Source: a virus (lineage: Duplodnaviria; Caudoviricetes). Taken from it: 64,000 nucleotides of DNA. The notes under the pieces are model-generated. The model was given only the letters and a program-made list of their open reading frames with translations, was not told the origin of the DNA and did not search any database. Below are positions 10,063 to 23,099 of the stretch, in pieces (positions within the stretch are counted from its first letter, which is position 1; each line of letters opens with the position of its first letter). The stretch spans positions 1,311 through 65,310 of IMG/VR virus record IMGVR_UViG_3300027736_000001; one strand, written 5' to 3'. The position numbers were made by a program, and so were the translations under genes.

Positions 10063-10072
10063 CACCCAGACG

Positions 10073-10097: not shown

Positions 10098-10123
10098 AGG
10101 ATTTACCCTTGGTCTAACAAATG

Positions 10124-10582
10124 TTAGATCGATGCTTTCTCAATGGCTCGGTCGATGTACCACTTGGCCTTCTGCAAGTCTTGCAGTCGGTTGCCTTTGT
10201 GGTCGGCGCGGGTGATGTACTTCACGGCATTGCCCAAGTGATACCCCAGTGCCTTTGCTTCAATAAAGTCGATGGTCTCAATCCCGCCCACCTTGTAGTG
10301 CTCAGGATGATTCACTGGGTCGGCCTTTGGTTCTTCTACGGCGATTTCAGGCATGGGTATCATTTTGGGGGGTTGCCATACCGCAATCCGTTTGAAGTTT
10401 CCAATCTTATTGGCAAGTTCCAGTTTGTTCTTGTCCATCTCTCGCTTCACCATGTACGCAATCTGATACGTGGTCTTGAATTTCTTCGCAACTTCGTTGA
10501 CGGTAGCCTCTGGGTTGCCGTTGTAGTACTGACGCATCAGGGATGCGCGGGATACCTTCTTTGCTTTTTTAGCTGTTGCCAT
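10124..10582 (-). CDS. DUF3310 (SaV-like) domain protein
   Basis: DPVNHPEHY..GGIETIDFI...GNAVKYITRA.HKG..LQDLQKAKWY. Confidence 0.85.
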   Translation of the reverse strand: MATAKKAKKVSRASLMRQYYNGNPEATVNEVAKKFKTTYQIAYMVKREMDKNKLELANKIGNFKRIAVWQPPKMIPMPEIAVEEPKADPVNHPEHYKVGGIETIDFIEAKALGYHLGNAVKYITRADHKGNRLQDLQKAKWYIDRAIEKASI

Positions 10583-10787
10583 TGTTTGCTCCTTGCATTT
10601 GGCTGTTGATGTACTCGGTAAGAATTTCTCTCATCTTGGCTTGCTTTGTATACGGATATTTGGTGTTGAAATAATCCATCACCTCCTTTGGTAGACGCAA
10701 GCTCGTGCAAAAAAGTGGCGGCTTCTTACCCAACCCCCGCCCCTTCTTTGGCTTTATCAGTTTCAGTTCCTCAATTCCCGTTGGCAT
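10569..10787 (-). CDS. Small DNA-binding protein (RHH/BrnA-like)
   Basis: GRGLGKKP..TSLRLPKEVMDYF. Confidence 0.55.
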   Translation of the reverse strand: MPTGIEELKLIKPKKGRGLGKKPPLFCTSLRLPKEVMDYFNTKYPYTKQAKMREILTEYINSQMQGANNGNS

Positions 10788-10956
10788 GTTCTAACCTCCT
10801 TTGCTTCTTAAAAAAATATTTGATTACTTGCAAGTTCACGCCGAACCGCTCGGCGATTTCTCGCATTGATACTCCCTGCTTGTGTAGGCTCAAGGCTCTT
10901 CGCTCGTCGATCAGTGTTGGCTTACGCCCACTTCCCGGTCTTGCGCCCCCCTTCAT
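10771..10956 (-). CDS. HTH DNA-binding protein with GGARPGSGRK N-terminus
   Basis: QGVSMREIAERFGVNLQVIKY. Confidence 0.7.
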   Translation of the reverse strand: MKGGARPGSGRKPTLIDERRALSLHKQGVSMREIAERFGVNLQVIKYFFKKQRRLEHANGN

Positions 10957-11099
10957 AGCTTCACCCCTTCATACCATCCGTCAACATACGCATCGTGGAA
11001 ACCCCAAGCGAACAGCCATGTCCAACTCAACTTTTCATCGCGTGGGTAGTTGATCTTTGCCATCATCAGGCACAGTTCTTTACTCGGTGGTGGCATCAT
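10953..11099 (-). CDS. Small hypothetical protein (48 aa, MMPPPSKELC...)
   Basis: Hand-translated; fills the gap and ends in an ATGA overlap. Confidence 0.5.
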   Translation of the reverse strand: MMPPPSKELCLMMAKINYPRDEKLSWTWLFAWGFHDAYVDGWYEGVKL

Positions 11100-11361
11100 G
11101 TTTTTTCTCCATCTTGGTTTGCAACTCATCCATCTTCGCCTTTAGCTTGGGCGCGTATTGACCTATGCTGATAAGTGTTGACTTGATCGTGTTGGTGTTG
11201 TATCCATACTCAAGGTTCTGCCGCAGTTCAAGATGTGCGGACCCAAGCAACCCATAGATTTCGTCTCGTTCTGCTTTAAGTCTCGCAACGTCTCCTTCCA
11301 AACCTCTTATCACAATCTTGAACGCCGTGGCTTCGCAATGTTTTTCACATGTGTCAGTCAT
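11080..11361 (-). CDS. Hypothetical protein (MTDTCEKHCE...)
   Basis: ATGA-coupled start. Confidence 0.55.
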   Translation of the reverse strand: MTDTCEKHCEATAFKIVIRGLEGDVARLKAERDEIYGLLGSAHLELRQNLEYGYNTNTIKSTLISIGQYAPKLKAKMDELQTKMEKKHDATTE

Positions 11362-11639
11362 GCTTCCCTCGCTTTCAGCATTGCGTCTGCTAACGAATAG
11401 CAAAGCTCTGCTATTGCTTTATGCTCATCAGGTTCGGGGCTATAGTTAATCAAACCACTCAAAGCTTTTGCCGCAAAGTAATCCCGCAGGGTCATGCCCG
11501 TCATGTCAGTCCTGTGAGGGTTTGGGAATGCTTGTTCTATTTTGTCCATGATCTGTCTTTTCCTTGATCCTGATGTGTGTTGCCAATGACCTTGCTTGAG
11601 TGCCAGTTCTTCAAATGCTTCGTCTTCTGGGTCAGTCAT
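11358..11639 (-). CDS. Conserved phage protein with GMTLRDYFAAKA motif
   Basis: GMTLRDYFAAKAL...YSLADAMLKAR, a widespread phage motif. Confidence 0.75.
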   Translation of the reverse strand: MTDPEDEAFEELALKQGHWQHTSGSRKRQIMDKIEQAFPNPHRTDMTGMTLRDYFAAKALSGLINYSPEPDEHKAIAELCYSLADAMLKAREA

Positions 11640-11826
11640 TCCATTTCTCCTTTAAAAACCTATCCACTTTTTCTTGCTCAAATTTTGCATAGTGCTGGGC
11701 CGCCCCCCAAAACCCTTGCAGTGAGTCTTGGTTTACAAGCCACGCAAAACGGCGTATTGCAGGTGTCAACTCAACGCCAGCTTCGGCGGCAAGCCTGTCT
11801 AAATTTGTATCCAATCGTCTTGTCAT
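11632..11826 (-). CDS. Hypothetical protein
   Basis: Coupled ORF, AGGAG RBS. Confidence 0.55.
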   Translation of the reverse strand: MTRRLDTNLDRLAAEAGVELTPAIRRFAWLVNQDSLQGFWGAAQHYAKFEQEKVDRFLKEKWND

Positions 11827-12011
11827 GTCTTCTCCTGTGGTGTGGCGTGTACCACTGCTTCAAGGTATTTCATTTCAGTTGCATCCATGGGGCGTCCGTT
11901 CTCTTGTTTAAACTGATGCAACACTTTCCCCAGCCTAATCGTTTGGTCAAACAATTCACCTACGTCAGCACATCCAGATGTTTTAATCAGGGCTTCAATT
12001 TTTGGACTCAT
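11823..12011 (-). CDS. Hypothetical protein
   Basis: Coupled ORF, AAGGAG RBS. Confidence 0.55.
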   Translation of the reverse strand: MSPKIEALIKTSGCADVGELFDQTIRLGKVLHQFKQENGRPMDATEMKYLEAVVHATPQEKT

Positions 12012-12244
12012 GTGTTCTTCTCCTTCATCCGTTGAATCCGCTCCAGCCTCTTGTGGTGCGCTGTTATGTACACGATGTACTCCATGTATGAATACGCTTT
12101 ATCCCAGTAAGTTCCTTTTGCTTCTTTTGGTGCATCCACAACGCCGTTGTCGGCATCCTGTCTGGCCTTGGCTTCGATGGTTCGCATCCGAGCATCCCCT
12201 ACAACTTCTTTGCAGGTGTCAATGTCAAAACTTTGCGGGGTCAT
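12008..12244 (-). CDS. Hypothetical protein
   Basis: Coupled ORF, AAGGAG RBS. Confidence 0.55.
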   Translation of the reverse strand: MTPQSFDIDTCKEVVGDARMRTIEAKARQDADNGVVDAPKEAKGTYWDKAYSYMEYIVYITAHHKRLERIQRMKEKNT

Positions 12245-13153: not shown

Positions 13154-13179
13154 TGCAGTTGCTCCTTGTCTAATAGTTG

Positions 13180-14016
13180 TTAGGTCTGCTCATCCAACAC
13201 TAGGACAAACACTTCATCATTGACACGACACCCTACGTTGGATAGGAATGTCTCGGCCTCTACCAATTTCAACATACCCAACTTACTACGCATCTCGTGA
13301 GGGAGCGTATTATCATCGTAGAGTTGTACATTGTCACGCACTTTAACCAAGTATTTACCCGAATCTTTTATGACTAGGGCAACCTCTTCCTTCTCAAAGC
13401 GTTGGCGTATTGTCTCAATGGTGAGCATCTCGCCTTGCATTTCTTCGACCTTCTTCGCCGCTTTGAGAATGGGTGCGCTAACCGACGGGGGTTGTAACTC
13501 TATGTGTGCCATGAAATGTGCAAGCCCCGAACCTTTGAGGTAGTCTAGTGCCGCCCTTTGGATGGTGTTCTCCTCTTGGGCCTTGGTTCTCTCCCGCTTC
13601 CATATCTGCTCGGTAAATACATCTGTCGCCGCCTTCGCCGCCTTAGTGATGCGCTCGTCTGGCTTCAAACGAAAGAACATCTTCTTGGCTTTGAGTATGG
13701 CCTTCTCTGCATCTTCTGTGTGATACGTATCCCCGCGCAGTCGCCCCTTGGCGATGCGGTCGTTGCATATGCCGATCACATGAGTTCCACCCCGATACGT
13801 TCGCGTGATTTCGCCTAGCTTCTCGCCCTGCTCAAACACATCGAACCCCATAGCTATTCTTGTGCCGTTAAAGCTAGTGTTCACGTCCTTTACTCGAAAC
13901 GTCCACAGCGGGTTCAGTGTTGCCAGTCGATACACCACTTGGTTGATGGTGCCGCTAACCTCGTCCACCTTGCCATGCTTGTGTGTGTCAATGTTGATTA
14001 GTTCCATTGTCTTCAT
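13180..14016 (-). CDS. Hypothetical protein
   Basis: 278 aa with AAGGAG RBS; stop lies inside a palindrome variant. Confidence 0.75.
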   Translation of the reverse strand: MKTMELINIDTHKHGKVDEVSGTINQVVYRLATLNPLWTFRVKDVNTSFNGTRIAMGFDVFEQGEKLGEITRTYRGGTHVIGICNDRIAKGRLRGDTYHTEDAEKAILKAKKMFFRLKPDERITKAAKAATDVFTEQIWKRERTKAQEENTIQRAALDYLKGSGLAHFMAHIELQPPSVSAPILKAAKKVEEMQGEMLTIETIRQRFEKEEVALVIKDSGKYLVKVRDNVQLYDDNTLPHEMRSKLGMLKLVEAETFLSNVGCRVNDEVFVLVLDEQT

Positions 14017-14026
14017 CTAATACTCC

Positions 14027-14881
14027 TTACCATTCAAACTTATTGATAATTGCGTCCACCTTGGACTTCAATTCACTGCGCGTGTCGGCATCTTCCTTGA
14101 TGCTCTCCATGTCCGCGTTCAACATGGCTACCTCTACTTGCCTACGGGCTTCCTCCAACTTCGGGTCGTTGGTGATGTTCAACTTGGTCAGAAGAGAACA
14201 GAGTTCCAAAGGATTGGTAAGCAACGTGTCGTGGTAACGCTTCTTGCCGTCATCCCCCTCAACATCAGTCAACTTCTCCGACATTGCCACCAACGTCTTA
14301 TGCAGACGCTCCCACGGCTCGCGCATTGCCTCTGCCAACTTGCGGTCTTGCTGTGACATAAACTCGCTGCGCATCTCCTCCAGGTCATACGCAGGAATGT
14401 CTAAGCGAAAGTCACCAGCCTCGGGCACAGGCTTGACTGTGCGGCGAAAGCCAAACTTCAATCTAACATCTGTTAGTTCGGGGTAGTCCTCTGCCTTGTA
14501 CAGCCCCTGCAACGCAGTCGGTGCCTCGGCAACCAAGCGCGGGTACTCAATGTAGAAGTTGTTGCACATCATGTTGAACGTCTGCTCGAACCCATTCATG
14601 GTCTGCTTGTAGTCCATGAACAACGCAGTCGGTAACATGCGCTCACCCTTGTCGGCCCAGGGCAATGTGTGCTTGTTGTGATACAGGCGCACTCGTGCGG
14701 CAAAGTCTGATATGTCTTTGCGTAGGCTCGTACCTGCAAACAAGTTCTTCTTGGTCTGCGATGCCCCACGCACCGCCCCCGCATCTGAGTTCACCTTGTC
14801 CGTGATCTCTCGGTCGATCTTGGACGCAGGCCACACACTGATGTTCAATTCCACTAACACTGCTGATGCACTGATACTCAT
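14027..14881 (-). CDS. DUF3150-like protein
   Basis: SAVLVELNISVW...TLPWADKGERMLP; helical; lies downstream of the AAA/vWA pair. Confidence 0.55.
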   Translation of the reverse strand: MSISASAVLVELNISVWPASKIDREITDKVNSDAGAVRGASQTKKNLFAGTSLRKDISDFAARVRLYHNKHTLPWADKGERMLPTALFMDYKQTMNGFEQTFNMMCNNFYIEYPRLVAEAPTALQGLYKAEDYPELTDVRLKFGFRRTVKPVPEAGDFRLDIPAYDLEEMRSEFMSQQDRKLAEAMREPWERLHKTLVAMSEKLTDVEGDDGKKRYHDTLLTNPLELCSLLTKLNITNDPKLEEARRQVEVAMLNADMESIKEDADTRSELKSKVDAIINKFEW

Positions 14882-14903
14882 TTCATTTCTCCTTGGTTAA
14901 AAA

Positions 14904-15358: not shown

Positions 15359-15392
15359 GTTCGTTCTCCTAACAGTTGTTAGATACCAGATT

Positions 15393-16580
15393 TCAATCTC
15401 GAATATGAATCGTCTTGCCATTTGGCGCAACATCATCATTACCCCCCACAATCACCCACAACAGAGGTGCAGTCCACTCGTTACCCCAGTCGCTACCAAC
15501 GTACCCATCGGTGAGCATGATGATGCACTCAGGCACGATGTGCTTGTCCTTGAGATATGTGGATACGCAACTAGGTGAAGTACCTCCACCGCCCGCTGGC
15601 CTGGTTGACTGCACGATGCTAGATACAGTAGCGCCTGTATAGGTCTCATGCCCCGCCACCTCGCCGTCCCAGTAGAGCAAGTCCACTACCTCGGGGCTTA
15701 CTTCCTCTGCGATACCCTTAACCTCGGAGAGAAACTCGGCGAGTTCCTTCCCGCCCACCGAACCGGACGTGTCAACACCGATCACCAAGTGACCCACCTT
15801 CTCACCTATCAGCGTAGGCATGTACACGCCTGTGGATAAGAATCTGCGGTTGACCCTGCGCCATGAGGACTTGTCCTTGGCACTGCACGTTGACTTCACA
15901 AACTCACGCAACACTTCGCGCCAATCGACTTTGGGCTCCATCAAGCCTTCAAGTTCGCGGTCAAGGCCACCTGTATTAGTTCCCGCTTTCTTGGCGGAGA
16001 TGAGTCCTTGGCGTATCGCTTGGTCAATCTCTCGTGCGAGTACCTTCTTCTCTTCCTCGGTCATGTCCTTGGCACCATCCCAATCGTGGATGTCGAACCC
16101 ATCGCCCTCGCCTTCGCCGTCATCCTCCTCCTTGAGTATGTCGAACACTTGCTTGGCATTCATGCCTCGGAATCGCTCGTCCACCAAGCCCATCACCTTG
16201 CCCTTGTTCGGCCCATCGGTATAGCGTGGCATGGCAATCACTGTCTCGCTCGGGTCCAAGTCCTTGAGCATGAGGTTAATCACGTAGTCACAAGCGGAAT
16301 TCGCCAAGTGGCGGTTCTCGTCATGCAACTTGCGCCATGTAGTGAGATGCCGATACATCTTGTGCGCGTTCTCATGCGCCACCACAAACGCCAACTCGGG
16401 GTCGCGTAGCTTCTTCACAAACTCGCGCCCATACCGCTCGTCTCGCCCATTGGTACAGGCGGTCGGGATGTTGTCATCCACTCTAGTACGCCCAACCATC
16501 ATGATGCCGCTCAGCAATGCGAATTTGGAATTGCGCATCAAACTGATCTTTGCCTTCTGCACTTTGCGTTCTTCTAACAT
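15393..16580 (-). CDS. Metallopeptidase-vWA protein (DUF2201-like)
   Basis: TACTNG, AHENAH (HExxH), VDTSGS MIDAS, GGGGT, LTDG. Confidence 0.85.
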   Translation of the reverse strand: MLEERKVQKAKISLMRNSKFALLSGIMMVGRTRVDDNIPTACTNGRDERYGREFVKKLRDPELAFVVAHENAHKMYRHLTTWRKLHDENRHLANSACDYVINLMLKDLDPSETVIAMPRYTDGPNKGKVMGLVDERFRGMNAKQVFDILKEEDDGEGEGDGFDIHDWDGAKDMTEEEKKVLAREIDQAIRQGLISAKKAGTNTGGLDRELEGLMEPKVDWREVLREFVKSTCSAKDKSSWRRVNRRFLSTGVYMPTLIGEKVGHLVIGVDTSGSVGGKELAEFLSEVKGIAEEVSPEVVDLLYWDGEVAGHETYTGATVSSIVQSTRPAGGGGTSPSCVSTYLKDKHIVPECIIMLTDGYVGSDWGNEWTAPLLWVIVGGNDDVAPNGKTIHIRD

Positions 16581-16583
16581 TTG

Positions 16584-16880
16584 TTAGCTCCTTTGTTTCA
16601 CTTCAGTTTCTTCAATACTTATAAGCATCTTCAATGCCGATGCCATCTGCTCTATGTCGTGTGTCTCAAGCAACACGTTTCTTTTGGAAGTGTCCCCTGA
16701 TACATGCTCCCGCTTCAACAACACAAATCGATACTCTGGTAGGTCTTGCGATTCAAACATCCGGCGCTCCAACTCCACTCGGTAGTGGTAATTGCTGTTC
16801 TTGAGTTTCTTCTCCAGATACTCAATCTCCTCCATCCTCAACGGCCAAGCCACCTTGCTGTATACCGCCGCATATAACAT
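16584..16880 (-). CDS. Hypothetical protein bounded by palindromes at both start and stop
   Basis: ATG in copy 16874, TAA in copy 16574. Confidence 0.6.
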   Translation of the reverse strand: MLYAAVYSKVAWPLRMEEIEYLEKKLKNSNYHYRVELERRMFESQDLPEYRFVLLKREHVSGDTSKRNVLLETHDIEQMASALKMLISIEETEVKQRS

Positions 16881-16883
16881 TTG

Positions 16884-17123
16884 TTAGCCTCCTTCCTCTG
16901 GTATCAGTAGCTTCACCATGTTGTTTAACTCCTCTGGGGTGTCAAACTCATGGACGATCGTGAACATACCCGCACCCACGCCGCTCTGCTCCAAGCGGTA
17001 CAGCGCATACTTGGATACACCCTTGTCGATGTACCCTCCTACTGTGTACCCTGCGTCTCGCAGTCGCTTGGAGGTGCGGGTATGCGACACCCATCCGTTG
17101 TCTACTTCAAGGTCTCGAGTCAC
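16884..17123 (-). CDS. Hypothetical protein
   Basis: GTGA-coupled; stop in palindrome 16874. Confidence 0.6.
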   Translation of the reverse strand: MTRDLEVDNGWVSHTRTSKRLRDAGYTVGGYIDKGVSKYALYRLEQSGVGAGMFTIVHEFDTPEELNNMVKLLIPEEGG

Positions 17124-18184
17124 AGCAGGTCTTGGTTCTTTGCTACCCAGTTGCTGAACGCCTGACAGCTAAACGCAATGGCTTGCTTGTCTCGGTTCTT
17201 GGCAATGTTGATAGCGAACACGGCTTGCCACTCGGCATCGAACCGCTCCACATACTCCATGAATGGGGTGATGCTTTGCTTGTCGATACGTGCAATGGCA
17301 CCGAACACAACGATCGCACATGCGCCAGGGCTTGTGGGTACCTTGGTGTGCTTAGGGTCTCGGATGGTCGCCTCCCATGTCGGCAATTGATCTGAGAATT
17401 CAATGTACGCTTGCATGTCACGCGCACCACTCTCACCGATAGCACCTGTCAACGCCGCAATCACCGCATCGGTGTCGTTCTCTCTGCGAGTTCTAACAAT
17501 GTTAGATGCCGTCTCCAATGAGCGTGGGGTTACGAACGCCGTCATAGTCTTGCGGGGGTTGAAGATGTAGGGGTTGTCGGCTTGCCCACCATCGGTGTAG
17601 CTTGCAAGTACGTGGGGAAAACGATTCACCCATGCAATCACCTCGGGCTCGATACCCTTGTTGATAGCCCACTCAATCCACTGCTCGGCATCGGGCTTGG
17701 CTACGTTGAGAGACACAAGGCGGTTCAAGCTATGCGCCTTCAACACATCGCCCACGCCATCGGTCGTTAGATTACCTGTCAAGAAGATGGGGCTACGATT
17801 GTCAATGGTGATGTCACCAAGGCGAGGGTTCGCCTTCTCAAGCATTGGATGTAGCATGTTCTTCACAGGGTCGGCACCTTTTGAGTACTCGTCCAGCATG
17901 ATGACGACAGGCTTGCCCTCGTGCAGTTTGAACCGCGCATTGGGGTAGTAGCGGGTGGTCTTGGTCTCGTGGTCGATCACAGGCATCGCAATGTCGCCCA
18001 AATCCATATTGGGTACGTCAATATACGCATAGTCGTACCCCAAGTCCCCAGCGATCGACTCCAGCAGGGATGACTTGCCGATGCCGGGCTCACCTCGTAA
18101 CATGAACCTCGTGGTCGGGTTCGTTTTGATAAGCGTTGCCGCTTGCTTCAAGGTCACAGTTTTTCCAAAAGTTACTTCTGACAT
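17120..18184 (-). CDS. MoxR-like AAA+ ATPase
   Basis: GEPGIGKS Walker A, IMLDE Walker B, TGN sensor, TPRS. Confidence 0.88.
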   Translation of the reverse strand: MSEVTFGKTVTLKQAATLIKTNPTTRFMLRGEPGIGKSSLLESIAGDLGYDYAYIDVPNMDLGDIAMPVIDHETKTTRYYPNARFKLHEGKPVVIMLDEYSKGADPVKNMLHPMLEKANPRLGDITIDNRSPIFLTGNLTTDGVGDVLKAHSLNRLVSLNVAKPDAEQWIEWAINKGIEPEVIAWVNRFPHVLASYTDGGQADNPYIFNPRKTMTAFVTPRSLETASNIVRTRRENDTDAVIAALTGAIGESGARDMQAYIEFSDQLPTWEATIRDPKHTKVPTSPGACAIVVFGAIARIDKQSITPFMEYVERFDAEWQAVFAINIAKNRDKQAIAFSCQAFSNWVAKNQDLL

Positions 18185-18267
18185 TTTCAAACTCCATCTG
18201 ATGTGCCGTTTCTAACAGTTGTTAGATTCGGCGGGTTACAAACAAACACTTCTACTTACCAACCTAT

Positions 18268-18296
18268 ATTATACCACAATGTTATGGATATGTCAA
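18268..18296 (-). promoter_or_regulatory. Consensus sigma70 promoter TTGACA-17-TATAAT with extended -10
   Basis: TTGACA tatccataacattgtgg TATAAT. Confidence 0.9.
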
Positions 18297-18305
18297 GTTT
18301 ATAGG

Positions 18306-19364
18306 TCACACTATCTCTGATATCCACTTGGCGTACTTCGGGTTGGGAGTCTTCCCCACCTCCAGCGCCACATGCTCCAGCACCTCCTCGGCGTGGTACT
18401 TCAATATGGCTTCGTCCACCATGAGCATCCACGCATTCACATCGACCCACCCATCCATCTCGTAGTCGTGCAGTACCCACTCATTGTTGTGAGTGGCCCT
18501 ACTCTCCCAATACCCTTCTACCAATAACGCTATCGCACCTCGGTAGAAGTTCTCGTGCCGCACATCCTCGGGCTGTCCGTTTACGATCGTGTCGGTGAAC
18601 GTTTTCATGTTCTCCTCATACTTGCGTATCGCATCGCGGTAATCTTGCTTTTGCACCTCCGTTGGGTTGAAGAAATACAGCTTTGTCGGCTTGCCAAAGA
18701 TGCAGTCGGTCTTCTCGCGGTTCAGTGCTTTGGCATCGTTGTATGCGCTGTCCATCACACCAAACATATTCACCGCCTCCTGTATGCCAAAATTGATTAC
18801 ATTGAACCTTCGCTCGTATGCCCTGCCCTGATGTAACACACGCTCCTCTTGGCGTAGGTTTATGAACCCACTCAGATACTTGCGGAATTCAGAGTAGCGC
18901 GATCTAACATTTGTTAGAGCCTTGCGATTTGCTTTGTACCCATAAAGCGTTTCGTGCTCCAGCACTCTCCATGCGTTAGTCCCCTCATGGCCCATCGTCA
19001 GCGTGTTGTCGCCTGTCATGGTGTAGTATCGGTTGCCCAATCGCAAGATACTGCTCCCGTTTTTCCCATGCGCAGGTATGCTTAACACTTGTTGGATGAA
19101 TTGGTGCGATGACACACTCGCCCACCCATTGGTGCGTAGCACGATCTTGCCGTTGGCCTTGTATGTGATGACCGGAGTCTTATACAAAACAAACTCCACA
19201 TCATCGCCGTTCATGCGCACAGAGTAGCTGTCCACATCCTTGCGATTACCCAAGGGTCGAATCTCGGGCACTCGTCCCCTGATTGGTAGAGCGGTGTCGT
19301 GTACCTGTTTGGCGTCCGCATAGTCTGTCACCCTCGGTACTCTCTTCACTGTTGCGTATCCCAT
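18306..19364 (-). CDS. Hypothetical early protein
   Basis: 352 aa ORF. Confidence 0.75.
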   Translation of the reverse strand: MGYATVKRVPRVTDYADAKQVHDTALPIRGRVPEIRPLGNRKDVDSYSVRMNGDDVEFVLYKTPVITYKANGKIVLRTNGWASVSSHQFIQQVLSIPAHGKNGSSILRLGNRYYTMTGDNTLTMGHEGTNAWRVLEHETLYGYKANRKALTNVRSRYSEFRKYLSGFINLRQEERVLHQGRAYERRFNVINFGIQEAVNMFGVMDSAYNDAKALNREKTDCIFGKPTKLYFFNPTEVQKQDYRDAIRKYEENMKTFTDTIVNGQPEDVRHENFYRGAIALLVEGYWESRATHNNEWVLHDYEMDGWVDVNAWMLMVDEAILKYHAEEVLEHVALEVGKTPNPKYAKWISEIV

Positions 19365-19365
19365 C

Positions 19366-19530
19366 TCATTCCCCCTGTGCGCGTACTCGGTACGCTTTAA
19401 GTTTTTTCAGCGTTGGATATGTTGCTTTGAACATCTCCTTGGCCACCTGTTTACTGCGGCATTCGATCGACTCGGCAACCCATTGCCCGAACCTGTCGCA
19501 CCACCCTGTCACGTAGTATCTAGCTAACAT
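19366..19530 (-). CDS. Small hypothetical protein (54 aa, MLARYYVTGWCD...)
   Basis: Hand-translated; ATG in palindrome 19524 with AAGGAG RBS. Confidence 0.65.
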   Translation of the reverse strand: MLARYYVTGWCDRFGQWVAESIECRSKQVAKEMFKATYPTLKKLKAYRVRAQGE

Positions 19531-19533
19531 TTG

Positions 19534-20031
19534 TTAGTCTCCTTTTTCTGCTTCGATTGTGTATTCCCCAAGAGCTATGCACTCCATCATTCGGCGTATC
19601 TCAGCATCCACAAACTCCCATGTGCGGTAGCTTGTAGTCGGGGGCCATGAAGCCTTCCCGCTGTGGTTGACCATGCGCATCTTGATATAGAGTCCGGGCA
19701 AAAAGTCCTCGCTGTGGGCACAGTCAAACCCGAACCACCACACGTTGCCCTCCCTGCCGCTGTACGTCAGCCCACCATGCGGAGTGTTGTCGTCCATCTC
19801 CACTCGGTTGTAGTCCACCCCCACCAACTCCCCAGTGGTTACACCCACGTAACCACAAAGCGTATGCGTTATGGTGTTGCGCATGATGTGCCCATGCAGT
19901 CCAGTGCTCTCGTCCACCCACTCGGCATGGTCGGGCTCCCCCTCCCAGGGTCGGTGTGGTTCGATCAGTTTGTACTGGTCGTAGATGGATACCAGCATGT
20001 CGGGCATCCCAGGTGCTTTAATTTCTAACAT
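19534..20031 (-). CDS. Conserved phage protein (CGYV...HGGLTY...WWFGFDCAH)
   Basis: Widespread phage motif; ATG and TAA both lie in palindromes. Confidence 0.75.
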   Translation of the reverse strand: MLEIKAPGMPDMLVSIYDQYKLIEPHRPWEGEPDHAEWVDESTGLHGHIMRNTITHTLCGYVGVTTGELVGVDYNRVEMDDNTPHGGLTYSGREGNVWWFGFDCAHSEDFLPGLYIKMRMVNHSGKASWPPTTSYRTWEFVDAEIRRMMECIALGEYTIEAEKGD

Positions 20032-20309
20032 CTGTTAGTCTCCTCATGTCTCTCGTACATGTTGTACTCGGCACGATGCCAAGGGTGAAACAGTGTTTTA
20101 CTGTCATTGGGATACTTCTTGCGAAGCATGGTCACGGCATCGCACAACCGCTCATGGATGTTCAACTTTATGTCGCACACGTCCATCAGCCTGTCCTGCA
20201 CACCGCGCACCTCGGGGTTGCGCATCAACTCCAGCGTCAGCTTGTCGGCTTGGTCGCGTTTGTCGATCAACACTTTGAATCGGTCTCGGGCTTCTCTTAC
20301 ATCCATCAT
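20025..20309 (-). CDS. Hypothetical protein
   Basis: GGAGG RBS; TAG stop in palindrome 20025. Confidence 0.6.
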   Translation of the reverse strand: MMDVREARDRFKVLIDKRDQADKLTLELMRNPEVRGVQDRLMDVCDIKLNIHERLCDAVTMLRKKYPNDSKTLFHPWHRAEYNMYERHEETNRC

Positions 20310-20413: not shown

Positions 20414-20598
20414 TCCTCTTCCTCCTCGGTTGCCTCTACACCGCAGAGGGTCATGACTTCTACTAGCGCATGATGGACATCTTCAAAGTACTCGGGATGG
20501 ATTCCATCGGGGTCGCGCAAGTAGTTGCGCAAGTCCTCGTCTATCGCTTGCAACAGCTTGTGTAGGCGCTCGATCTGGTCTAGGTCAAAATCTAACAT
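20410..20598 (-). CDS. Hypothetical acidic protein
   Basis: ATG in palindrome 20592. Confidence 0.6.
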   Translation of the reverse strand: MLDFDLDQIERLHKLLQAIDEDLRNYLRDPDGIHPEYFEDVHHALVEVMTLCGVEATEEEEE

Positions 20599-20645
20599 TT
20601 GTTAGTTCCCTTTCATTGGTTGTTTCGGTTGGTTGTTTCGGTTGT

Positions 20646-20846: not shown

Positions 20847-20858
20847 TCTTGGTTCTCC

Positions 20859-21041
20859 TTATGAATAAGTGTTTGCTTTGGCTTGCTCGTTGTAGAGATT
20901 GACCATGCGTTTTTGCACATCCTCCCAACCATCGCCCCAGTACAGCATTTGCATTGCCATACCAATAGACCAGCGCACATCGCTTTCGTCTTCCATGTGT
21001 TTGACTGCTTCGGCAATCAACTCGTCAATATTTATCTCCAT
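20859..21041 (-). CDS. Hypothetical protein (MEINIDEL...)
   Basis: TGATG coupling. Confidence 0.55.
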   Translation of the reverse strand: MEINIDELIAEAVKHMEDESDVRWSIGMAMQMLYWGDGWEDVQKRMVNLYNEQAKANTYS

Positions 21042-21283
21042 CACATCTCTCCTTGTGGGGGGAAGTCTTCTTCTTGCAAGGGGGGCAACTCCATTGCTTC
21101 CTTCATCATGTGCCACACATCGCCGAATGTCTCCATGTCCTCTGCCCCAAGGCAGGGGTCGCCGTACCCATCGGGCTTACCATCGTAGTAAGTCACCTCT
21201 TGTATGCAGTACCAATCCTCCCCGCCATTGGCAGTCTTGGTGTTGACAATTCTGTAGTTCCAATAAAAATCAAAGTCGCTCAT
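21041..21283 (-). CDS. Conserved phage protein (WNYRIV...IQEVTYYDG)
   Basis: Common phage motif; AAGGAG RBS. Confidence 0.65.
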   Translation of the reverse strand: MSDFDFYWNYRIVNTKTANGGEDWYCIQEVTYYDGKPDGYGDPCLGAEDMETFGDVWHMMKEAMELPPLQEEDFPPQGEM

Positions 21284-21513
21284 GCTCGGTTCTCCTTTGG
21301 GTTAGTCTGCTTCAGCGTTGTGGGTGCGCTGTTAGCGGTAACGTATTGATAGTTGCCTTTTGTGTATTCCTGCACAATGCACCACGATGTACGTTCCTCT
21401 TGGGCACTGTGTTCTCGGTCACGTTCGCAAAAGATGCAGAACGCTTGATACCTTGCGGTCGGTACGTCATCGCCGCAGTCGATGCATTCTTTCCAGTCTA
21501 AGTCCATCATCAT
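21280..21513 (-). CDS. Zinc-finger protein (CxxC...CxxC)
   Basis: CIDCGDD...FCIFCE; first gene after promoter 21609. Confidence 0.65.
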   Translation of the reverse strand: MMMDLDWKECIDCGDDVPTARYQAFCIFCERDREHSAQEERTSWCIVQEYTKGNYQYVTANSAPTTLKQTNPKENRA

Positions 21514-21608
21514 CTAACCTTTCTTTCTTTGTTACGTTATGAATCTAACAGTTGTTAGATTCGGGGATTGGTCGGGGGCTTTGTTACATTTATCCCTAAC
21601 CAGCTTAT

Positions 21609-21637
21609 ATTATACCACAAAGTTACAGACTTGTCAA
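21609..21637 (-). promoter_or_regulatory. Consensus sigma70 promoter TTGACA-17-TATAAT with extended -10
   Basis: TTGACA agtctgtaactttgtgg TATAAT. Confidence 0.9.
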
Positions 21638-21914
21638 GTTTTTAGCTGGAGGGCTGTCTTTGATTTGCGACCAAAGTTACGGAATTTATGTAACAAAAGG
21701 GGAAACGTAACGCAAAAACATAACGCGAAAACTTCAATGGAATCAGGGGGTTAGAGTGTTTGTGTATGTATATGTTATAATGTTATTAGAGAAAAAGGGT
21801 ATACGAGCCTGGTGGCTTTTGGTGTGTGGTGCAAATTGCGCTTTCTGCCTTGCTTGGAACTTGACGGACCTTCATACACCCCGCGTAACATTGTAACATA
21901 TAACATTGCTTTAA

Positions 21915-21927
21915 AATCAACAACTTA
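21915..21927 (+). promoter_or_regulatory. IHF consensus site
   Basis: AATCAA-caac-TTA matches WATCAANNNNTTR; near match AATCAG-gggg-TTA at 21741-21753. Confidence 0.55.
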
Positions 21928-22112
21928 CGTGTGGTACGTTATAACATTACAACGCCGAAACATAACAACATAACATTTGTTAGATTTGGGGGGCACTGTG
22001 TTTATGTACAATACATTGTGGATGCTCGCGTATACACAAGGTTGCTACGCCCACCCGAAGAACTGGTGCAAGCAAAATCGGGTTAACCCTAACAATGTTA
22101 TGTTCCACCAAC

Positions 22113-22174
22113 AAAAAAGCCCGACCTAACAAATGTTAGATCGGGCAAACAAAAAAGCCCCGCATGAGCGGGGC
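22113..22174 (-). terminator. Two tandem intrinsic terminators
   Basis: GCCCCGC-tcat-GCGGGGC-T6 (22151-22174) and GCCCGA..palindrome..TCGGGC-T6 (22113-22146). Confidence 0.85.
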
Positions 22175-22195
22175 TTAGGGGTGCGAGGGGAGGGG

Positions 22196-22726
22196 TTAAC
22201 CCAACTTGTCGATATCACCGCCGAGGGATTCGAAAACCTCCATCAATGTGCCTTTGTAATCGCTAGCGATACATGACACGCCTTCTTCTTCGGCCTTAAA
22301 TATACGATTGATAATCGTTTTCAATTCGGCCTTGGTTTTGTCGTCAATGTCAGTTGACCCCTTGACACGGTTTCCCGCTGTAACATAACCCGATGCTTCT
22401 TTGACACGTTGCCAATAAACATCAATGGTAGGTTTGCCAAACCCCTCCGCTGTCATTGCGGCCACAAATGCTTCCCTCTCCGCCTTGATACCCTTCTTCA
22501 ATGCGCCTTTGAGGTCGAACCATTTGGTTGTCACTTGACCCTGGTTGTCGGTCAAGTCAAACGTGGCACACAAGGCCAGGGCGTAAACCTTGACCACTTG
22601 ACCGGTTTTCTTGGCCGCGCCGACTAAGGCGGTGCGAGAATCGATCAAGCTGTTGACGCCCTGGGCGATGGGGGAAACGACACTAACGCTTTGGATGTTA
22701 TCCATGATACTAACCTTTTCTAACAT
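22196..22726 (-). CDS. Hypothetical protein, monocistronic first gene of the early arm
   Basis: Own promoter and terminators; ATG in palindrome 22720 (alternative start 22705). Confidence 0.7.
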   Translation of the reverse strand: MLEKVSIMDNIQSVSVVSPIAQGVNSLIDSRTALVGAAKKTGQVVKVYALALCATFDLTDNQGQVTTKWFDLKGALKKGIKAEREAFVAAMTAEGFGKPTIDVYWQRVKEASGYVTAGNRVKGSTDIDDKTKAELKTIINRIFKAEEEGVSCIASDYKGTLMEVFESLGGDIDKLG

Positions 22727-22795
22727 CTGTTAGGTTTGCACATTGCGCTACCTATCTTGAGCATACATACAAGGTTATCTTGTTTGCATGACTGG

Positions 22796-22824
22796 ATTAT
22801 ACCATTTTGTGGTGCAAAATGCAA
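22796..22824 (-). promoter_or_regulatory. sigma70 promoter TTGCAT-17-TATAAT with extended -10
   Basis: TTGCAT tttgcaccacaaaatgg TATAAT. Confidence 0.75.
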
Positions 22825-23099
22825 GTTTTTAGGGAAACAATAATTTCTCTTGGGGGGAATGGGCATAACAATGTTAGTTGTCATTCTGACAAGCGACCCA
22901 CCCACCCAAAACTACGACAAAGGGAGGTGGGGACCCCTTACACTCTGTGTCACACACCCGATACCAACATCCATACTTTCTATAACGGCGTAGTATATTT
23001 TGAATACTAGATACCCACCCCCATACTTTTTATAACAATACCCCCCTCCCCCCTATATATTTTTGAAAACACCCCCCGTCAAAGGGACCCACAAAAAGC

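What the first reader, a model, noticed from the sequence alone, without database searches (positions are those of the whole stretch)
10114..22877. Eighteen copies of a palindrome CTAACA-NN-TGTTAG confined to the early region
Seen: 12 perfect copies (10114, 14463, 15369, 16574, 18212, 18904, 19524, 20025, 20592, 21545, 22126, 22720), 3 with one mismatch (13170, 16874, 21970) and 3 with a 1-nt centre (17493, 22089, 22865). By eye I found none in 1-10 kb or the 41-kb late arm. Twelve fixed bases are expected about 0.004 times in 64 kb of uniform sequence. Conserved arms with a variable centre (TT, TC, GT, AA) fit a dimeric protein site. It does not match LexA (CTGT-N8-ACAG), parS or matS consensus. 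Inference: a phage system that marks or silences the whole early segment rather than single promoters. Candidate binders are 22196-22726 (site over its own start), XRE 1621-1860, HTH 10771-10956 and RHH-like 10569-10787.
Basis: partly seen in the sequence, partly recalled or inferred. Interest (0 to 1): 0.88.

Follow-up and report, generated by a model that had tools for sequence, protein, structure and literature searches.

The report
Dispersed palindromic operator sites, phage early region
A freshwater phage and its many uncultured relatives carry about 18 copies of one 14-base palindrome at the promoters, gene junctions and terminators of their early genes, most likely the binding sites of a still unidentified regulator of early transcription.

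Summary
The window has 12 perfect CTAACA-NN-TGTTAG, 3 one-mismatch copies and 3 copies with a 1-nt centre, all in 10114-22877; shuffles expect 0.01-0.22. The window is nearly a whole 65.3-kb virus record with no further copy.

The motif is the commonest palindrome in 76 of 80 related IMG/VR loci. It comes in genome-wide classes: spacer 1, 2 or 3 nt, or arms CTGACA/TGTCAG. Selection is class-specific, even inside genes. One ATPase peptide encodes a perfect 1-nt-spacer site in 15/15 spacer-1 loci but 5/35 spacer-2 loci. Another protein encodes the 2-nt site in 22/44 spacer-2 loci and 0/18 spacer-1 loci.

The arms are invariant, with no G·U tolerance. The spacer-1 centre is A or T in both orientations. 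One copy lies upstream of the first early promoter in 14/14 lineages. These points favour recognition as double-stranded DNA by a spacing-specific dimer that controls three sigma70-type early operons.

The reader protein is not identified. The RHH protein is identical in a spacer-2/spacer-3 pair. The first early gene tracks spacing in 37/39 loci, but on only 3-4 independent contrasts. An RNA-level role is not excluded.

The parts
22865..22877 (.). Motif copy, 1-nt centre, one outer mismatch (ATAACAATGTTAG on +). It lies 40 nt upstream of the -35 of early promoter P1, outside the early transcript.
   Evidence: A copy is present at this position in 14 of 14 unique P1 regions of relatives (11 strict, 3 with one inner mismatch).
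22796..22824 (-). P1, sigma70-type promoter (TTGCAT, 17 nt, TGgTATAAT) of the first early gene.
   Evidence: Read; found by pattern. The transcription start is not mapped.
22720..22733 (.). Motif copy in the P1 leader. It starts 62 nt after the -10 and ends 14 nt before ATG 22705.
22196..22705 (-). Gene 1 (169 aa; 176 aa if started at 22726). It is the first early gene, forms its own transcription unit and is all-helical with no recognisable fold.
22155..22176 (-). T1, intrinsic terminator-like hairpin after gene 1.
22119..22146 (-). T2, a 12-pair terminator-like hairpin whose apex is the motif copy 22126-22139.
   Evidence: The same arrangement with different, complementary flanks occurs in 5 contexts in relatives.
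22089..22101 (.). Motif copy, 1-nt centre, one outer mismatch, just after T2.
21650..22100 (.). Non-coding region between T2 and P2, rich in orphan half-sites TAACA/TGTTA. It contains the copy 21970-21983 (one outer mismatch) and a conserved promoter-like element (TTGATT ... TGTTACAAT, 21920-21890).
   Evidence: 11 orphan half-sites in the 21-22 kb bin against about 1 per kb elsewhere.. Relatives without the palindrome have half-site arrays in a non-coding stretch.
21609..21637 (-). P2, perfect sigma70 consensus promoter with an extended -10.
   Evidence: 12 of 12 matches.
21545..21558 (.). Motif copy in the P2 leader. It starts 50 nt after the -10 and ends 31 nt before ATG 21513.
20592..20605 (.). 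Motif copy directly after an SD-like sequence. Its ATG (20598) is the start codon of gene 20410-20598.
20025..20038 (.). Motif copy. Its ATG (20031) starts the MazG-like gene 19534-20031, and its TAG ends gene 20025-20309.
19524..19537 (.). Motif copy. Its ATG (19530) starts gene 19366-19530, and its TAA ends gene 19534-20031.
18904..18917 (.). Motif copy inside ORF 18306-19364, read as L-T-N-V-R.
18268..18296 (-). P3, perfect sigma70 consensus promoter with an extended -10.
   Evidence: 12 of 12 matches.
18212..18225 (.). Motif copy in the P3 leader. It starts 42 nt after the -10 and ends 27 nt before ATG 18184 of the ATPase gene.
17493..17505 (.). Perfect 1-nt-centre copy inside the MoxR-like ATPase gene, read as S-N-I-V-R.
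   Evidence: the same codons are kept in 15 of 15 spacer-1 loci and 5 of 35 spacer-2 loci.
16874..16887 (.). Motif copy (one outer mismatch). Its ATG (16880) starts gene 16584-16880, and its TAA ends gene 16884-17123.
16574..16587 (.). Motif copy. Its ATG (16580) starts the DUF2201/VWA gene 15393-16580, and its TAA ends gene 16584-16880.
15369..15382 (.). Motif copy between the stop of 15393-16580 and the SD plus ATG 15358 of the next gene.
14463..14476 (.). Motif copy inside ORF 14027-14881, read as L-T-D-V-R.
   Evidence: a perfect 2-nt-spacer site at this position in 22 of 44 spacer-2 loci and 0 of 18 spacer-1 loci, where the peptide reads (I/L)-E-x-V-(K/R).
13170..13183 (.). Motif copy (one inner mismatch). 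Its TAA ends gene 13180-14016, and it lies 16 nt before ATG 13153.
10569..10787 (-). Small ribbon-helix-helix-like protein with a basic KGRGxGKKP N-terminal arm. It is the conserved DNA-binding candidate at the end of the early region.
   Evidence: No Pfam hit.
10114..10127 (.). Last motif copy. Its TAA ends the DUF3310 gene 10124-10582, and it lies just upstream of the terminator that closes the early region.
10080..10097 (-). Intrinsic terminator-like hairpin at the early/middle boundary.

Best explanation
The palindromes are a dispersed set of binding sites, read as double-stranded DNA by a sequence- and spacing-specific dimeric regulator.

The phage is a lytic-looking 65-kb podovirus-like phage from freshwater. 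No integrase was seen in what I scanned, and its polymerase is only distantly related to those of Pseudomonas KPP25 and Rhizobium phages. Its early genes (22.9 to 10.1 kb, minus strand) are transcribed by host RNA polymerase from three very strong sigma70-type promoters.

Each promoter is followed by one copy in the leader. P1 also has a copy upstream. Further copies sit every 0.3-1.3 kb at gene junctions, in one terminator and in three coding sequences.

I infer that the regulator brackets P1 and blocks elongating polymerase in the leaders and at the junctions. This would shut down or throttle the whole early segment once the regulator has accumulated.

The regulator's arm and spacing specificity has changed repeatedly in the family, and all sites of a genome have followed.

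Shown here: the sites, their conservation, their class-specific selection and their placement.

Inferred only: that binding is to DNA, that it represses, and who binds. The lead is the product of the first early gene, 22196-22705. The RHH protein 10569-10787 is the second candidate. A host factor is possible.
For: 1. Non-random and confined to one region. There are 12, 15 and 17 copies (perfect, one mismatch or fewer, 10-base core) against shuffle means of 0.01, 0.11 and 0.22. In 5 of 5 near-complete relatives all copies lie in one 4-20 kb stretch.

2. Family-wide with genome-wide classes. The motif is the top palindrome in 76 of 80 loci. Spacer-1, spacer-2, spacer-3 and CTGACA classes each dominate their genomes. 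On the DUF2201 tree the class changes at least 5 times, 14 by parsimony.

3. A near-identical pair differs in class. L069 and L051 are 92-98% identical in DNA, yet 7 orthologous sites differ by exactly one base in the spacer.

4. Class-specific selection inside genes. The ATPase SNIVR position is a perfect spacer-1 site in 15/15 spacer-1 loci, 5/35 A2, 0/3 A3 and 0/3 G2. The LTDVR position of the 284-aa protein is a perfect spacer-2 site in 22/44 A2 and 0/18 A1, with amino-acid changes.

5. DNA-like rather than RNA-like signature. Inner arm positions are almost invariant among 723 unique-context sites. One-mismatch variants that would keep a G·U pair number 5, against 19 of the mirror C·A type. 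The spacer-1 centre is A or T in 150 of 151 non-start sites, A 71 and T 79, so both orientations of one duplex occur.

6. Copies outside the early transcript. A copy lies 22-40 nt upstream of the P1 -35 in 14 of 14 unique P1 regions.

7. Half-sites alone cluster in non-coding DNA. There are 11 in one kb of the window. Direct and inverted arrays occur in 4 relatives that lack the palindrome.

8. Regular placement. The order promoter, 40-75 nt, motif, SD, ATG is conserved in all classes.

9. Candidate readers. Gene-1 type goes with spacing in 37 of 39 loci, and its spacer-1/3 type is the only family of at least 6 loci that spans all six spacer-1 clades. The RHH-like protein is present in 64 of 80 loci. 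Its modelled homodimer scores 0.48 against a best control of 0.00. That mark was reached by 20 of 30 solved homomers and 1 of 23 single chains. The runs agree in at least 91% of contacts and pLDDT is at least 73. The pass may reflect likeness to solved RHH dimers.
Against: 1. No binding has been measured, and no reader is identified.

2. The phylogenetically controlled test of gene 1 has only 3-4 independent contrasts: 2 go the same way and 1 the opposite way (L057 against L070), p = 1. Gene 1 has no recognisable DNA-binding fold. Foldseek finds nothing at E <= 0.001 in PDB or BFVD, and the best VIA Z is 6.5, on helical repeats.

3. The RHH protein, the Zn-finger protein and the 54-aa protein are identical in the spacer-2/spacer-3 pair. 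No ORF of the CTGACA genome L057 is closer to the other CTGACA genomes than to CTAACA genomes. No ORF family beats the baseline in nearest-neighbour class concordance.

4. Some genomes mix spacings: the window has 15 + 3, L062 has 9 + 5 and L070 has 7 + 5. A rigid dimer should not tolerate this. The P1-upstream copy of spacer-2 phages often has a 1-nt spacer.

5. RNA-flavoured features exist. 11 of 18 copies lie within 31 nt of a start codon or on it. One copy forms the apex of a terminator hairpin whose flanks co-vary. On the coding strand the 2-nt centres are skewed: in the 'other' category AA 104 against TT 48, and AC 22 against GT 1. Avoidance or use of start codons can explain the skew.

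6. Roadblocks 40-60 nt downstream of consensus promoters are not known to be efficient repressors (established knowledge, not tested here).
Confidence: 0.5

Rival explanations
1. RNA-level element. In the early mRNAs the motif folds into a weak 5-bp hairpin with a 3-5 nt loop. A phage or host RNA-binding protein or endoribonuclease recognises it. The role would be translational repression at start codons (RegA- or MS2-operator-like), intercistronic processing (T7 RNase III-site-like) or nut/boxB-like antitermination from the leaders.
For: - 5 copies carry the start codon directly after an SD, and 6 more lie within 31 nt upstream of a start.
- Across relatives, 126 of 624 sites are SD plus ATG-in-motif starts.
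- Every early promoter has a copy in its leader.
- One copy is the apex of a terminator hairpin with co-varying flanks in 5 contexts.
- The coding-strand centres are skewed in the 2-nt class.
Against: - The stems never co-vary within a genome, and G·U-compatible variants are not favoured: 5 against 19.
- The loop varies while the stem is invariant, the opposite of known hairpin operators (established knowledge).
- The spacer-1 centre is A or T at equal frequency on the coding strand and almost never G or C.
- One copy is conserved upstream of P1, where no early transcript is expected.
- Direct half-site arrays cannot form hairpins.
- Three copies lie within coding sequence under class-specific selection.
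- No Rfam family matches.
Confidence: 0.2
2. The sites are read by a host protein, for instance a global dimeric regulator or nucleoid protein. The phage would use them to time or boost early transcription, and a change of motif class would follow a change of host.
For: - No phage protein in the compared regions co-varies cleanly with the class.
- The near-identical pair L069/L051 differs mainly in the late region (65-91% identity or no alignment), where host-range genes may lie (not identified here), while the early and middle regions are 92-98% identical.
- The 10-base core equals that of the 14-bp PrfA box of Listeria, a Crp/Fnr-family site. I saw the string only in a search listing.
- The arms resemble a -35 hexamer: CTGACA matches TTGACA at 5 of 6 positions (read from the sequence).
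Against: - Orthologous host regulators rarely change half-site spacing by 1-2 bp (established knowledge).
- The host is unknown, so nothing could be tested.
- The giant virion-protein type does not follow the class.
- Gene-1 type does follow the class in 37 of 39 loci.
Confidence: 0.15
3. The conserved 14-mer serves mainly as a linker of micro-homology at which early-gene cassettes are exchanged between related phages, as proposed for promoter-stem-loop cassettes of T4-type phages.
For: - The early region is highly plastic. Of 35 window genes used as queries (31 of them in the early region), 13 are found in 5 or fewer of 80 relatives.
- Ends of pairwise alignment blocks are ten times denser at motif sites than in the background: 188 against 18 per kb.
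- Contigs of relatives in public runs join across cassettes at motif positions, for example 16587 to 17207 and 16893 to 20040.
Against: - Motif-less gene junctions have nearly the same breakpoint density: 148 against 188 per kb.
- Linkers need neither a palindrome, nor a genome-specific spacing, nor copies inside conserved genes, nor a copy upstream of P1.
Confidence: 0.07
4. The palindromes extrude as DNA hairpins and are recognised in that form, for example as promoters of a virion-borne polymerase as in phage N4, or by another injected protein.
For: - A 5-6 bp stem with a 3-5 nt loop is the N4 promoter geometry (recalled).
- The phage has a 2022-aa virion-type polyvalent protein.
- In one triad of genomes the block encoding this protein went with the spacer class.
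Against: - No polymerase domain is detected in the giant protein.
- Three consensus sigma70 promoters already serve the early region.
- Many copies overlap SD and start codons, so a transcript started there would lack them.
- The giant-protein type does not follow the class in other genomes.
Confidence: 0.04

Closest known systems
Stoperators of Cluster A mycobacteriophages (L5, Bxb1)
   Same: - Tens of copies of one short site are spread through transcribed DNA, mostly in the short gaps between genes.
- The motif differs between related phages along with the repressor.
- The repressor is said to stop elongation at the sites. My sources are the abstract of PMC9283540 as shown in the listing, and passages of PMC6550527 found.
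   Different: - Stoperators are asymmetric 13-mers, oriented with transcription and bound by a monomeric immunity repressor of temperate phages (PMC9283540, abstract in the listing). They occur over the whole genome.
- Here the site is a palindrome with a variable spacer and is restricted to the early region.
Intergenic 22-bp repeats of lytic phages T1 and Stevie
   Same: There are 16-20 copies of one repeat, predominantly intergenic, in a lytic phage, and the role is unknown (PMC4319613, passage read).
   Different: Those repeats are asymmetric and oriented with transcription. No class switching or in-gene selection has been described for them in the passage I read.
Operator pairs that bracket a promoter (gal OE/OI, lac O1/O3) and the dispersed C1 operators of phage P1
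   Same: Sites lie upstream and downstream of P1, about 144 bp apart, and many sites serve one regulator. This comparison is recalled, not from a call.
   Different: No looping or repressor has been shown here. P1 operators are asymmetric 17-mers.
PrfA box (TTAACANNTGTTAA) and other 14-bp Crp/Fnr-family sites
   Same: The 10-base core TAACA-NN-TGTTA and the 14-bp dyad geometry are identical. The string was found in 6 papers in the listing, and I read none of them.
   Different: The outer bases differ. The organism is unrelated. No Crp-family protein was found in the phage. The spacer-1 and spacer-3 classes have no counterpart.
Omega and Arc type ribbon-helix-helix repressors binding short repeats 7-9 bp apart
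   Same: - The phage encodes an RHH-like dimer.
- Half-site centres 7, 8 or 9 bp apart, and arrays of direct and inverted half-sites, are what adjacent RHH dimers bind. This is recalled knowledge; the title of 2bnw names direct heptad repeats.
   Different: The RHH protein is identical in genomes with 2-nt and 3-nt spacers, and it has no Pfam RHH match.
Promoter-early stem-loop cassettes (PeSL) of T4-type phages
   Same: A strong early promoter is followed by a stem-loop, flanking variable small ORFs in a plastic early region (recalled). Here the leaders also begin with a conserved stem-loop (read).
   Different: Only 3 of 18 copies follow a promoter, and breakpoints are hardly enriched over other junctions.

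Membership tests
Mycobacteriophage-type stoperators | Many copies of one short site dispersed in transcribed DNA, mostly in short intergenic gaps | tested here: met
   18 copies in 12.8 kb. 15 of 18 lie at junctions, in leaders or in non-coding DNA.
Mycobacteriophage-type stoperators | Asymmetric site with one orientation relative to transcription | tested here: not met
   The site is a perfect palindrome. The spacer-1 centres are A 71 and T 79 on the coding strand.
Mycobacteriophage-type stoperators | Bound by the phage's immunity repressor, which co-varies with the motif | tested here: inconclusive
   There is no binding data. Gene-1 type is concordant with spacing in 37/39 loci, but only 3-4 independent contrasts exist. 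The RHH protein is identical across two classes.
RNA hairpin operators (MS2 operator, boxB, RegA sites) | Stem kept by compensatory or G·U changes, loop conserved | tested here: not met
   The stem sequence is invariant within genomes, the loop is variable, and G·U-type variants number 5 against 19 of C·A type.
RNA hairpin operators (MS2 operator, boxB, RegA sites) | Located in transcripts at translation starts or leaders | tested here: inconclusive
   11 of 18 copies are near starts, but one conserved copy lies upstream of P1 and 3 lie inside ORFs.
Intrinsic terminators | G+C-rich stem followed by a T run | tested here: not met
   Only 22126 is embedded in such a hairpin, and 10114 lies beside one. 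Among 752 unique sites in relatives, 5 are terminator-like.
N4-type hairpin promoters for a virion RNA polymerase | Virion-borne polymerase present and early genes lacking host promoters | tested here: not met
   Three sigma70 consensus promoters are present. The giant protein has only LPD39 and DarB-like matches. Absence of a polymerase fold was not tested by structure.
Crp/Fnr-type 14-bp dyad sites (PrfA box) | 5-4-5 dyad with core TAACA..TGTTA, read by a Crp-family dimer | tested here: inconclusive
   The core string is identical (listing). No Crp-family protein appears among the phage ORFs scanned. The host is unknown.
Ribbon-helix-helix proteins (for 10569-10787) | Strand-helix-helix topology forming a dimer through an antiparallel ribbon | tested here: met
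   - Model: an extended segment, then helices 34-43 and 48-67.
- More than a dozen RHH proteins are among the 50 rows listed by VIA, Z 2.5-3.7, rmsd 2.2-4.4 A over 40-49 residues.
- Homodimer score 0.48 against 0.00, with residues 27-32 paired between copies. This may reflect likeness to solved RHH dimers.
Ribbon-helix-helix proteins (for 10569-10787) | Match to a curated RHH sequence family | tested here: not met
   No Pfam family at E <= 0.01. The profile search of PDB sequences gave nothing relevant.
Recombination linkers / PeSL cassettes | Mosaic breakpoints concentrated at the repeat beyond other gene junctions | tested here: inconclusive
   188 block ends per kb at motifs, 148 at motif-less junctions and 18 in the background.

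The most novel reading that the evidence does not exclude
A lytic freshwater phage lineage runs a stoperator-like network. The product of the very first early gene, a protein of a fold not matched to anything solved, would bind a palindrome at about 18 places and close down the whole host-transcribed early segment. Its arm and spacing specificity would diversify rapidly (1, 2 or 3 nt; A or G in the arm), with every site in the genome following, even at the cost of amino-acid changes. That pattern is what one expects if related phages that co-infect a cell silence each other's early genes. It would be a form of heteroimmunity without lysogeny.
Probability: 0.2. Interest if true: 0.8.

Novelty: new variant of a known kind. 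Interest (0 to 1): 0.62.

Why it matters
Dispersed regulator sites that act on whole transcription units are well documented only for temperate mycobacteriophages. Comparable repeats in lytic phages such as T1 have no known role.

This case offers an unusually clean comparative signal in an abundant, uncultured freshwater phage group, with 143 relatives in IMG/VR. The same element occurs in four interchangeable specificity classes. Selection on it is visible at single codons. Near-identical genomes differ only in the spacer.

- a natural series for studying how a DNA-binding protein and a whole set of its sites change spacing together;
- a handle on early shut-off in phages that lack their own RNA polymerase;
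- compact, orthogonal operator/regulator pairs.

If the RNA reading is right instead, it would be a new multi-site post-transcriptional operator.

Tried and rejected
**Near relatives among deposited phages.** Megablast of 10000-23000 found none. By DNA polymerase the best hits are 35-37% identical.

**Literature.** Searching the two hexamers returned only noise. The full motif strings are in no paper searched; only the PrfA-box core string was found. A six-term concept search found nothing.

**Known RNAs.** There are no Rfam matches at gathering score and no tRNA. The weak E-value hits are terminator look-alikes.

**Motif as a promoter.** No fixed -10-like element follows the copies (read).

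**Extended hairpins.** Beyond the 6-bp arms, pairing continues only at chance level, apart from a slight excess at the 7th pair.

- The ORFs of L057 compared with the other CTGACA genomes gave nothing.
- Nearest-neighbour class concordance over 66 ORF families found none above the baseline of 0.87-0.91 that spans several classes.
- The triad G006/G002/G007 pointed to the giant virion-protein block. This lead was rejected, because the window (spacer 2) carries the same C-terminal type as the spacer-3 genomes (67-70% identity). In addition, the spacer-2 genomes G001 and G004 are as distant as the spacer-1 genome G005.

**Gene 1.** A profile search of PDB sequences, Foldseek against PDB and BFVD, the VIA wide search and the protein atlas gave no informative relative.

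**RHH model.** Foldseek gave no match.

**Public reads.** Only Logan contigs were available, and the RNA-labelled runs held 5-10% of the words. They show neither transcript ends nor levels, so they say nothing on RNA processing.

**Closed or unused tools.** Supplementary files of papers were not opened. They might hold motif tables for the stoperator papers, but they do not bear on this phage.

**Dropped rows.**
- In some searches the loci whose peptide did not match my pattern were collapsed into one 'nomatch' row. The counts I quote come from one search, which located the position by alignment in every locus whose match covered it.
- In one search only the 52 sequences of at least 12 kb (51 of the 80 loci plus the window) were used, and pairs at 99% identity or more were left out.
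- In one search only the 39 rows (38 loci plus the window) with a typed gene 1 were used.

Full report
**1. The observation**

100 dinucleotide-preserving shuffles give a mean of 0.01. With one mismatch there are 15 copies, the three extra being 13170, 16874 and 21970, against a mean of 0.11. The 10-base core TAACA-N(1-3)-TGTTA occurs 17 times against a mean of 0.22. That count includes the three 1-nt-centre copies at 17493, 22089 and 22865. Two mismatches add only 4446 and 19082, as chance predicts (2.09 expected). All 18 copies lie in 10114-22877. The window is bases 1311-65310 of a 65,310-base IMG/VR virus record with terminal repeats, and the rest of the record holds no copy.

**2. The setting**

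Genes in 1-23.7 kb run on the minus strand and the structural genes run from 23.7 kb on the plus strand. The plus-strand genes include:
- terminase and portal;
- tail proteins;
- a 2022-aa polyvalent protein.

The minus-strand arm contains:
- a family A DNA polymerase, a helicase, a primase-like protein and a PD-(D/E)XK nuclease in 1-10 kb;
- upstream of these, a MoxR-like ATPase, a DUF2201 metallopeptidase/VWA protein, a MazG-like protein, a DksA/TraR-like zinc finger, a DUF3310 protein and about twenty small ORFs without family.

No close deposited relative exists. By polymerase the nearest are Rhizobium and Pseudomonas KPP25-type phages at 35-37% identity. Public runs holding this DNA are freshwater metagenomes.

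Three sigma70-type promoters with extended -10 elements face the early genes. P2 (21637-21609) and P3 (18296-18268) match the consensus at 12 of 12 positions. P1 (22824-22796) reads TTGCAT-17-TATAAT. Terminator-like hairpins lie after the first gene (22176-22155 and 22146-22119) and at 10097-10080. The motif-bearing segment is therefore the stretch from P1 to the terminator that precedes the replication genes.

**3. Anatomy of the copies (with ORFs)**

On the coding strand the motif reads C-TAA-CA(A/G)-ATG-TTA-G.
- At 16574, 16874, 19524, 20025 and 20592 an SD-like GGAG/GGGA directly precedes the motif. The ATG inside the motif opens the downstream gene, so these proteins begin Met-Leu.
- At 10114, 13170, 16574, 16874 and 19524 the TAA inside the motif is the stop of the upstream gene. 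At 20025 the terminal TAG is that stop.
- At 22720, 21545 and 18212 the copy lies in the leader. It starts 62, 50 and 42 nt after the -10 of P1, P2 and P3, and ends 14-31 nt before the start codon. At 15369 and 13170 it lies just ahead of an SD.
- 22126 is the apex of the second terminator hairpin. 22089 and 21970 lie in the non-coding stretch before P2. 22865 lies 40 nt upstream of the P1 -35.
- 18904, 17493 and 14463 lie inside ORFs. The 2-nt-spacer form has only one open frame, which reads LT(N/D)VR.

The 3 kb from 13.1 to 10.1 kb, with about 14 small genes, has no copy.

**4. Relatives**

I used the DUF2201 protein as bait. IMG/VR holds 143 relatives, of which 80 loci (65-96% identity) were kept.

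The motif family is the commonest palindrome in 76 of the 80. It comes in classes:
- CTAACA-N2-TGTTAG, as in this phage;
- CTAACA-N1-TGTTAG, up to 16 perfect copies in a locus;
- CTAACA-N3-TGTTAG, 5-6 copies;
- CTGACA-N2-TGTCAG, 4-10 copies, with both arms changed.

Most genomes have one dominant class. A few are mixed, for example L062 with 9 and 5 copies and L070 with 7 and 5.

Four loci lack the palindrome but have arrays of related half-sites, direct and inverted, clustered in a non-coding stretch. The window has a matching cluster: 11 orphan TAACA/TGTTA in the 21-22 kb bin against about 1 per kb elsewhere.

In 5 of 5 near-complete relatives all copies fall in one 4-20 kb region. On a quick DUF2201 tree the class changes at least 5 times, 14 by parsimony.

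**5. Evidence that the motif itself is selected, class by class**

L069 (spacer 3) and L051 (spacer 2) are 92-98% identical across the early and middle regions. Even so, 7 orthologous sites differ by exactly one base in the spacer, and one site is the same in both.

Two coding sites act as natural experiments. I located each position by alignment in every locus whose match covered it.
- The ATPase peptide SNIVR is encoded as a perfect 1-nt-spacer site in 15 of 15 spacer-1 loci and 4 of 5 mixed loci. It is so encoded in only 5 of 35 spacer-2 loci, 0 of 3 spacer-3, 0 of 3 CTGACA and 0 of 4 motif-less loci. In those the codons wander freely.
- The 284-aa protein carries a perfect 2-nt-spacer site, read LTDVR, in 22 of 44 spacer-2 loci and 0 of 18 spacer-1 loci. 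In the spacer-1 loci the peptide reads (I/L)-E-x-V-(K/R), so the protein sequence itself has been bent to hold the site.

**6. DNA or RNA?**

Points for a duplex-DNA reader:
- Among 723 unique-context sites, arm positions 2-5 are almost invariant and most single changes hit the outermost pair. Changes that would keep a G·U pair in the mRNA number 5, against 19 of the mirror type.
- Within a genome the stem never co-varies while the centre does vary.
- The 1-nt centre is A or T in 150 of 151 non-start unique sites, A 71 and T 79. These are the two orientations of one duplex.
- Spacing is genome-specific, and this holds even inside ORFs.
- A copy sits 22-40 nt upstream of the P1 -35 in 14 of 14 unique P1 regions, in the divergent intergenic region.
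- Half-sites occur as direct repeats.

Points for RNA:
- Many copies are associated with leaders and start codons.
- The terminator with the motif at its apex has flanks that differ between lineages but stay complementary, in 5 contexts.
- The 2-nt centres are skewed on the coding strand. AC against GT is 22 to 1 in the 'other' category (sites that are neither starts nor intragenic).

The skew is explained if the centre is chosen to provide an ATG where a start is wanted and to avoid ATG, GTG and TTG in leaders. That is a constraint of being in mRNA, not proof of an RNA function.

I put the DNA reading at roughly two to one over the RNA reading.

**7. Who reads it?**

- *HTH 10771-10956.* It has weak Pfam HTH_7 and sigma70 region 4 matches and occurs in only 9 of 80 loci.
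- *HTH-like 1621-1860.* It is 96% identical between the spacer-3 genome G006 and the spacer-2 genome G007, and 89% identical to the spacer-3 genome G002.
- *Protein 10569-10787.* It is found in 64 of 80 loci.
  - It models as strand-helix-helix.
  - It draws a list rich in RHH proteins, at low Z of 2.5-3.7.
  - As two copies it scores 0.48 against a best control of 0.00. That mark was reached by 20 of 30 solved homomers and 1 of 23 single chains. The runs agree in at least 91% of contacts and pLDDT is at least 73. This supports an RHH-type dimer, but it may reflect memory of solved RHH dimers.
  - The protein is identical in L051 and L069 and nearly identical in L057 (CTGACA) and L062 (CTAACA). 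It therefore cannot be what sets the spacing or the arm base.
- *No ORF family co-varies.* No L057 ORF groups with the other CTGACA genomes, and no ORF family exceeds the baseline class concordance.
- *The giant virion protein.* It looked promising in one triad but fails in other genomes.
- *The first early gene, 22196-22705.* It is the best remaining lead.
  - It has its own promoter flanked by two copies and its own terminators, one of which carries a copy.
  - It exists in deeply diverged types. The window's type occurs in spacer-2 genomes, another type in spacer-1 and spacer-3 genomes.
  - Type and spacing agree in 37 of 39 loci.
  - The second type is the only family of at least 6 loci that spans all six spacer-1 clades.
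  - Counting only independent contrasts on the tree leaves 3-4 pairs: 2 in the expected direction and 1 against (L057 against L070), p = 1.
  - Its model (pLDDT 79) is a six-helix protein with no convincing structural relative. The protein atlas lists only hypothetical viral proteins.
- *A host-encoded reader* cannot be excluded.

**8. Other readings**

Mosaic breakpoints are ten times denser at the motif than in the background. They are only 1.27 times denser than at motif-less gene junctions: 188, 148 and 18 per kb. Cassette exchange therefore looks like a side effect rather than the purpose. An N4-like hairpin-promoter reading conflicts with the three host-type promoters and with copies that overlap SD and start codons.

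**9. Comparison with what is known**

The nearest described systems are these:
- the stoperators of Cluster A mycobacteriophages (PMC9283540, abstract as listed; PMC6550527, passages);
- the unexplained intergenic repeats of lytic T1-like phages (PMC4319613, passage).

Both are asymmetric and oriented. The present element is a dyad with switchable spacing in a lytic-type phage and is restricted to the early segment.

The comparisons with the following are recalled and come from no call: Brown et al. on L5, the P1 C1 operators, the gal/lac operator pairs, omega-repressor heptads (apart from the PDB title of 2bnw), N4 promoters, T4 PeSL cassettes, and the Cluster K and Cluster O repeats.

The exact motif strings occur in no paper of the searched library. 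Only the PrfA-box core is shared.

**10. Verdict**

The finding is real and far beyond chance. It is conserved and under strong, class-specific selection. Its most likely nature is a dispersed operator set for a dimeric DNA-binding regulator of host-polymerase early transcription (confidence 0.5). I rate it a new variant of a known kind, with interest 0.62.

Noticed in passing
window 21880-21925 (minus strand); also L008, L047, L054, L077, L067, L068, L044: A promoter-like element (TTGATT, about 19 nt, TGTTACAAT) and roughly 100 nt of downstream non-coding sequence are conserved across motif classes, even in a relative without the palindrome. This could be a small RNA gene, an origin or a regulatory hub. 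No Rfam match.
   Followed up: partly
window 22880-23100 (between P1 and the late operon): Two direct repeats (TTATA[A/G]AAAGTATGG...GGTAT) and G-runs lie next to a block (GGTATCGGGTGTG...CACAGAGTGTAAGGGG...CCACCTCCC) that is conserved in the P1-upstream regions of many relatives. This may be a late-promoter or activator site, or a packaging signal.
   Followed up: no
window 21560-21605 and 18226-18262; leaders: The P2- and P3-type leaders begin with a conserved ATAAGCTGGTTGGG... segment. It can pair with a downstream CCC(A/G)ACC stretch, with covariation between lineages, to form a 5'-terminal stem-loop of the early mRNAs. P1 leaders have a different one (CATGCAAAC...GTTTGCATG).
   Followed up: no
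window 21615-21632, 18274-18291; relatives: The spacer of the early promoters is itself conserved ((C/G)ATAAC(T/A)TTGTGGTATAAT). In some relatives it forms a motif-like palindrome (G/A)TAACA-N3-TGTTAT overlapping the extended -10. This may be a weak operator on the core promoter.
   Followed up: partly
window 15393-18184: A MoxR-like AAA ATPase and a DUF2201 metallopeptidase/VWA protein, with the unknown 284-aa and 278-aa proteins downstream (13180-14881), form the conserved core of the early region in nearly all 80 relatives. Their role in infection is unknown. PHROGs labels the DUF2201 family as HNH endonuclease, which looks like a mislabel.
   Followed up: no
window 21280-21513: A small protein with a DksA/TraR-type C4 zinc finger (weak Pfam match, E 0.015) is the first gene after P2 and is conserved in 40 of 80 loci. 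It is a plausible modulator of host RNA polymerase.
   Followed up: no
window 57609-63677: A 2022-aa polyvalent-type protein (LPD39 domain; the C-terminal 850 aa match DarB-like giant phage proteins). Its type is exchanged between otherwise near-identical genomes: 27% against 70% identity.
   Followed up: partly
L069:12335-13294: A 319-aa ORF is inserted directly after the DNA polymerase gene in one relative and is absent from its 95%-identical sister L051. It may be a mobile gene.
   Followed up: no
window 10100-13150: About 14 short, tightly packed or overlapping ORFs at the distal end of the early region carry no motif copy at all, unlike the proximal 10 kb.
   Followed up: no
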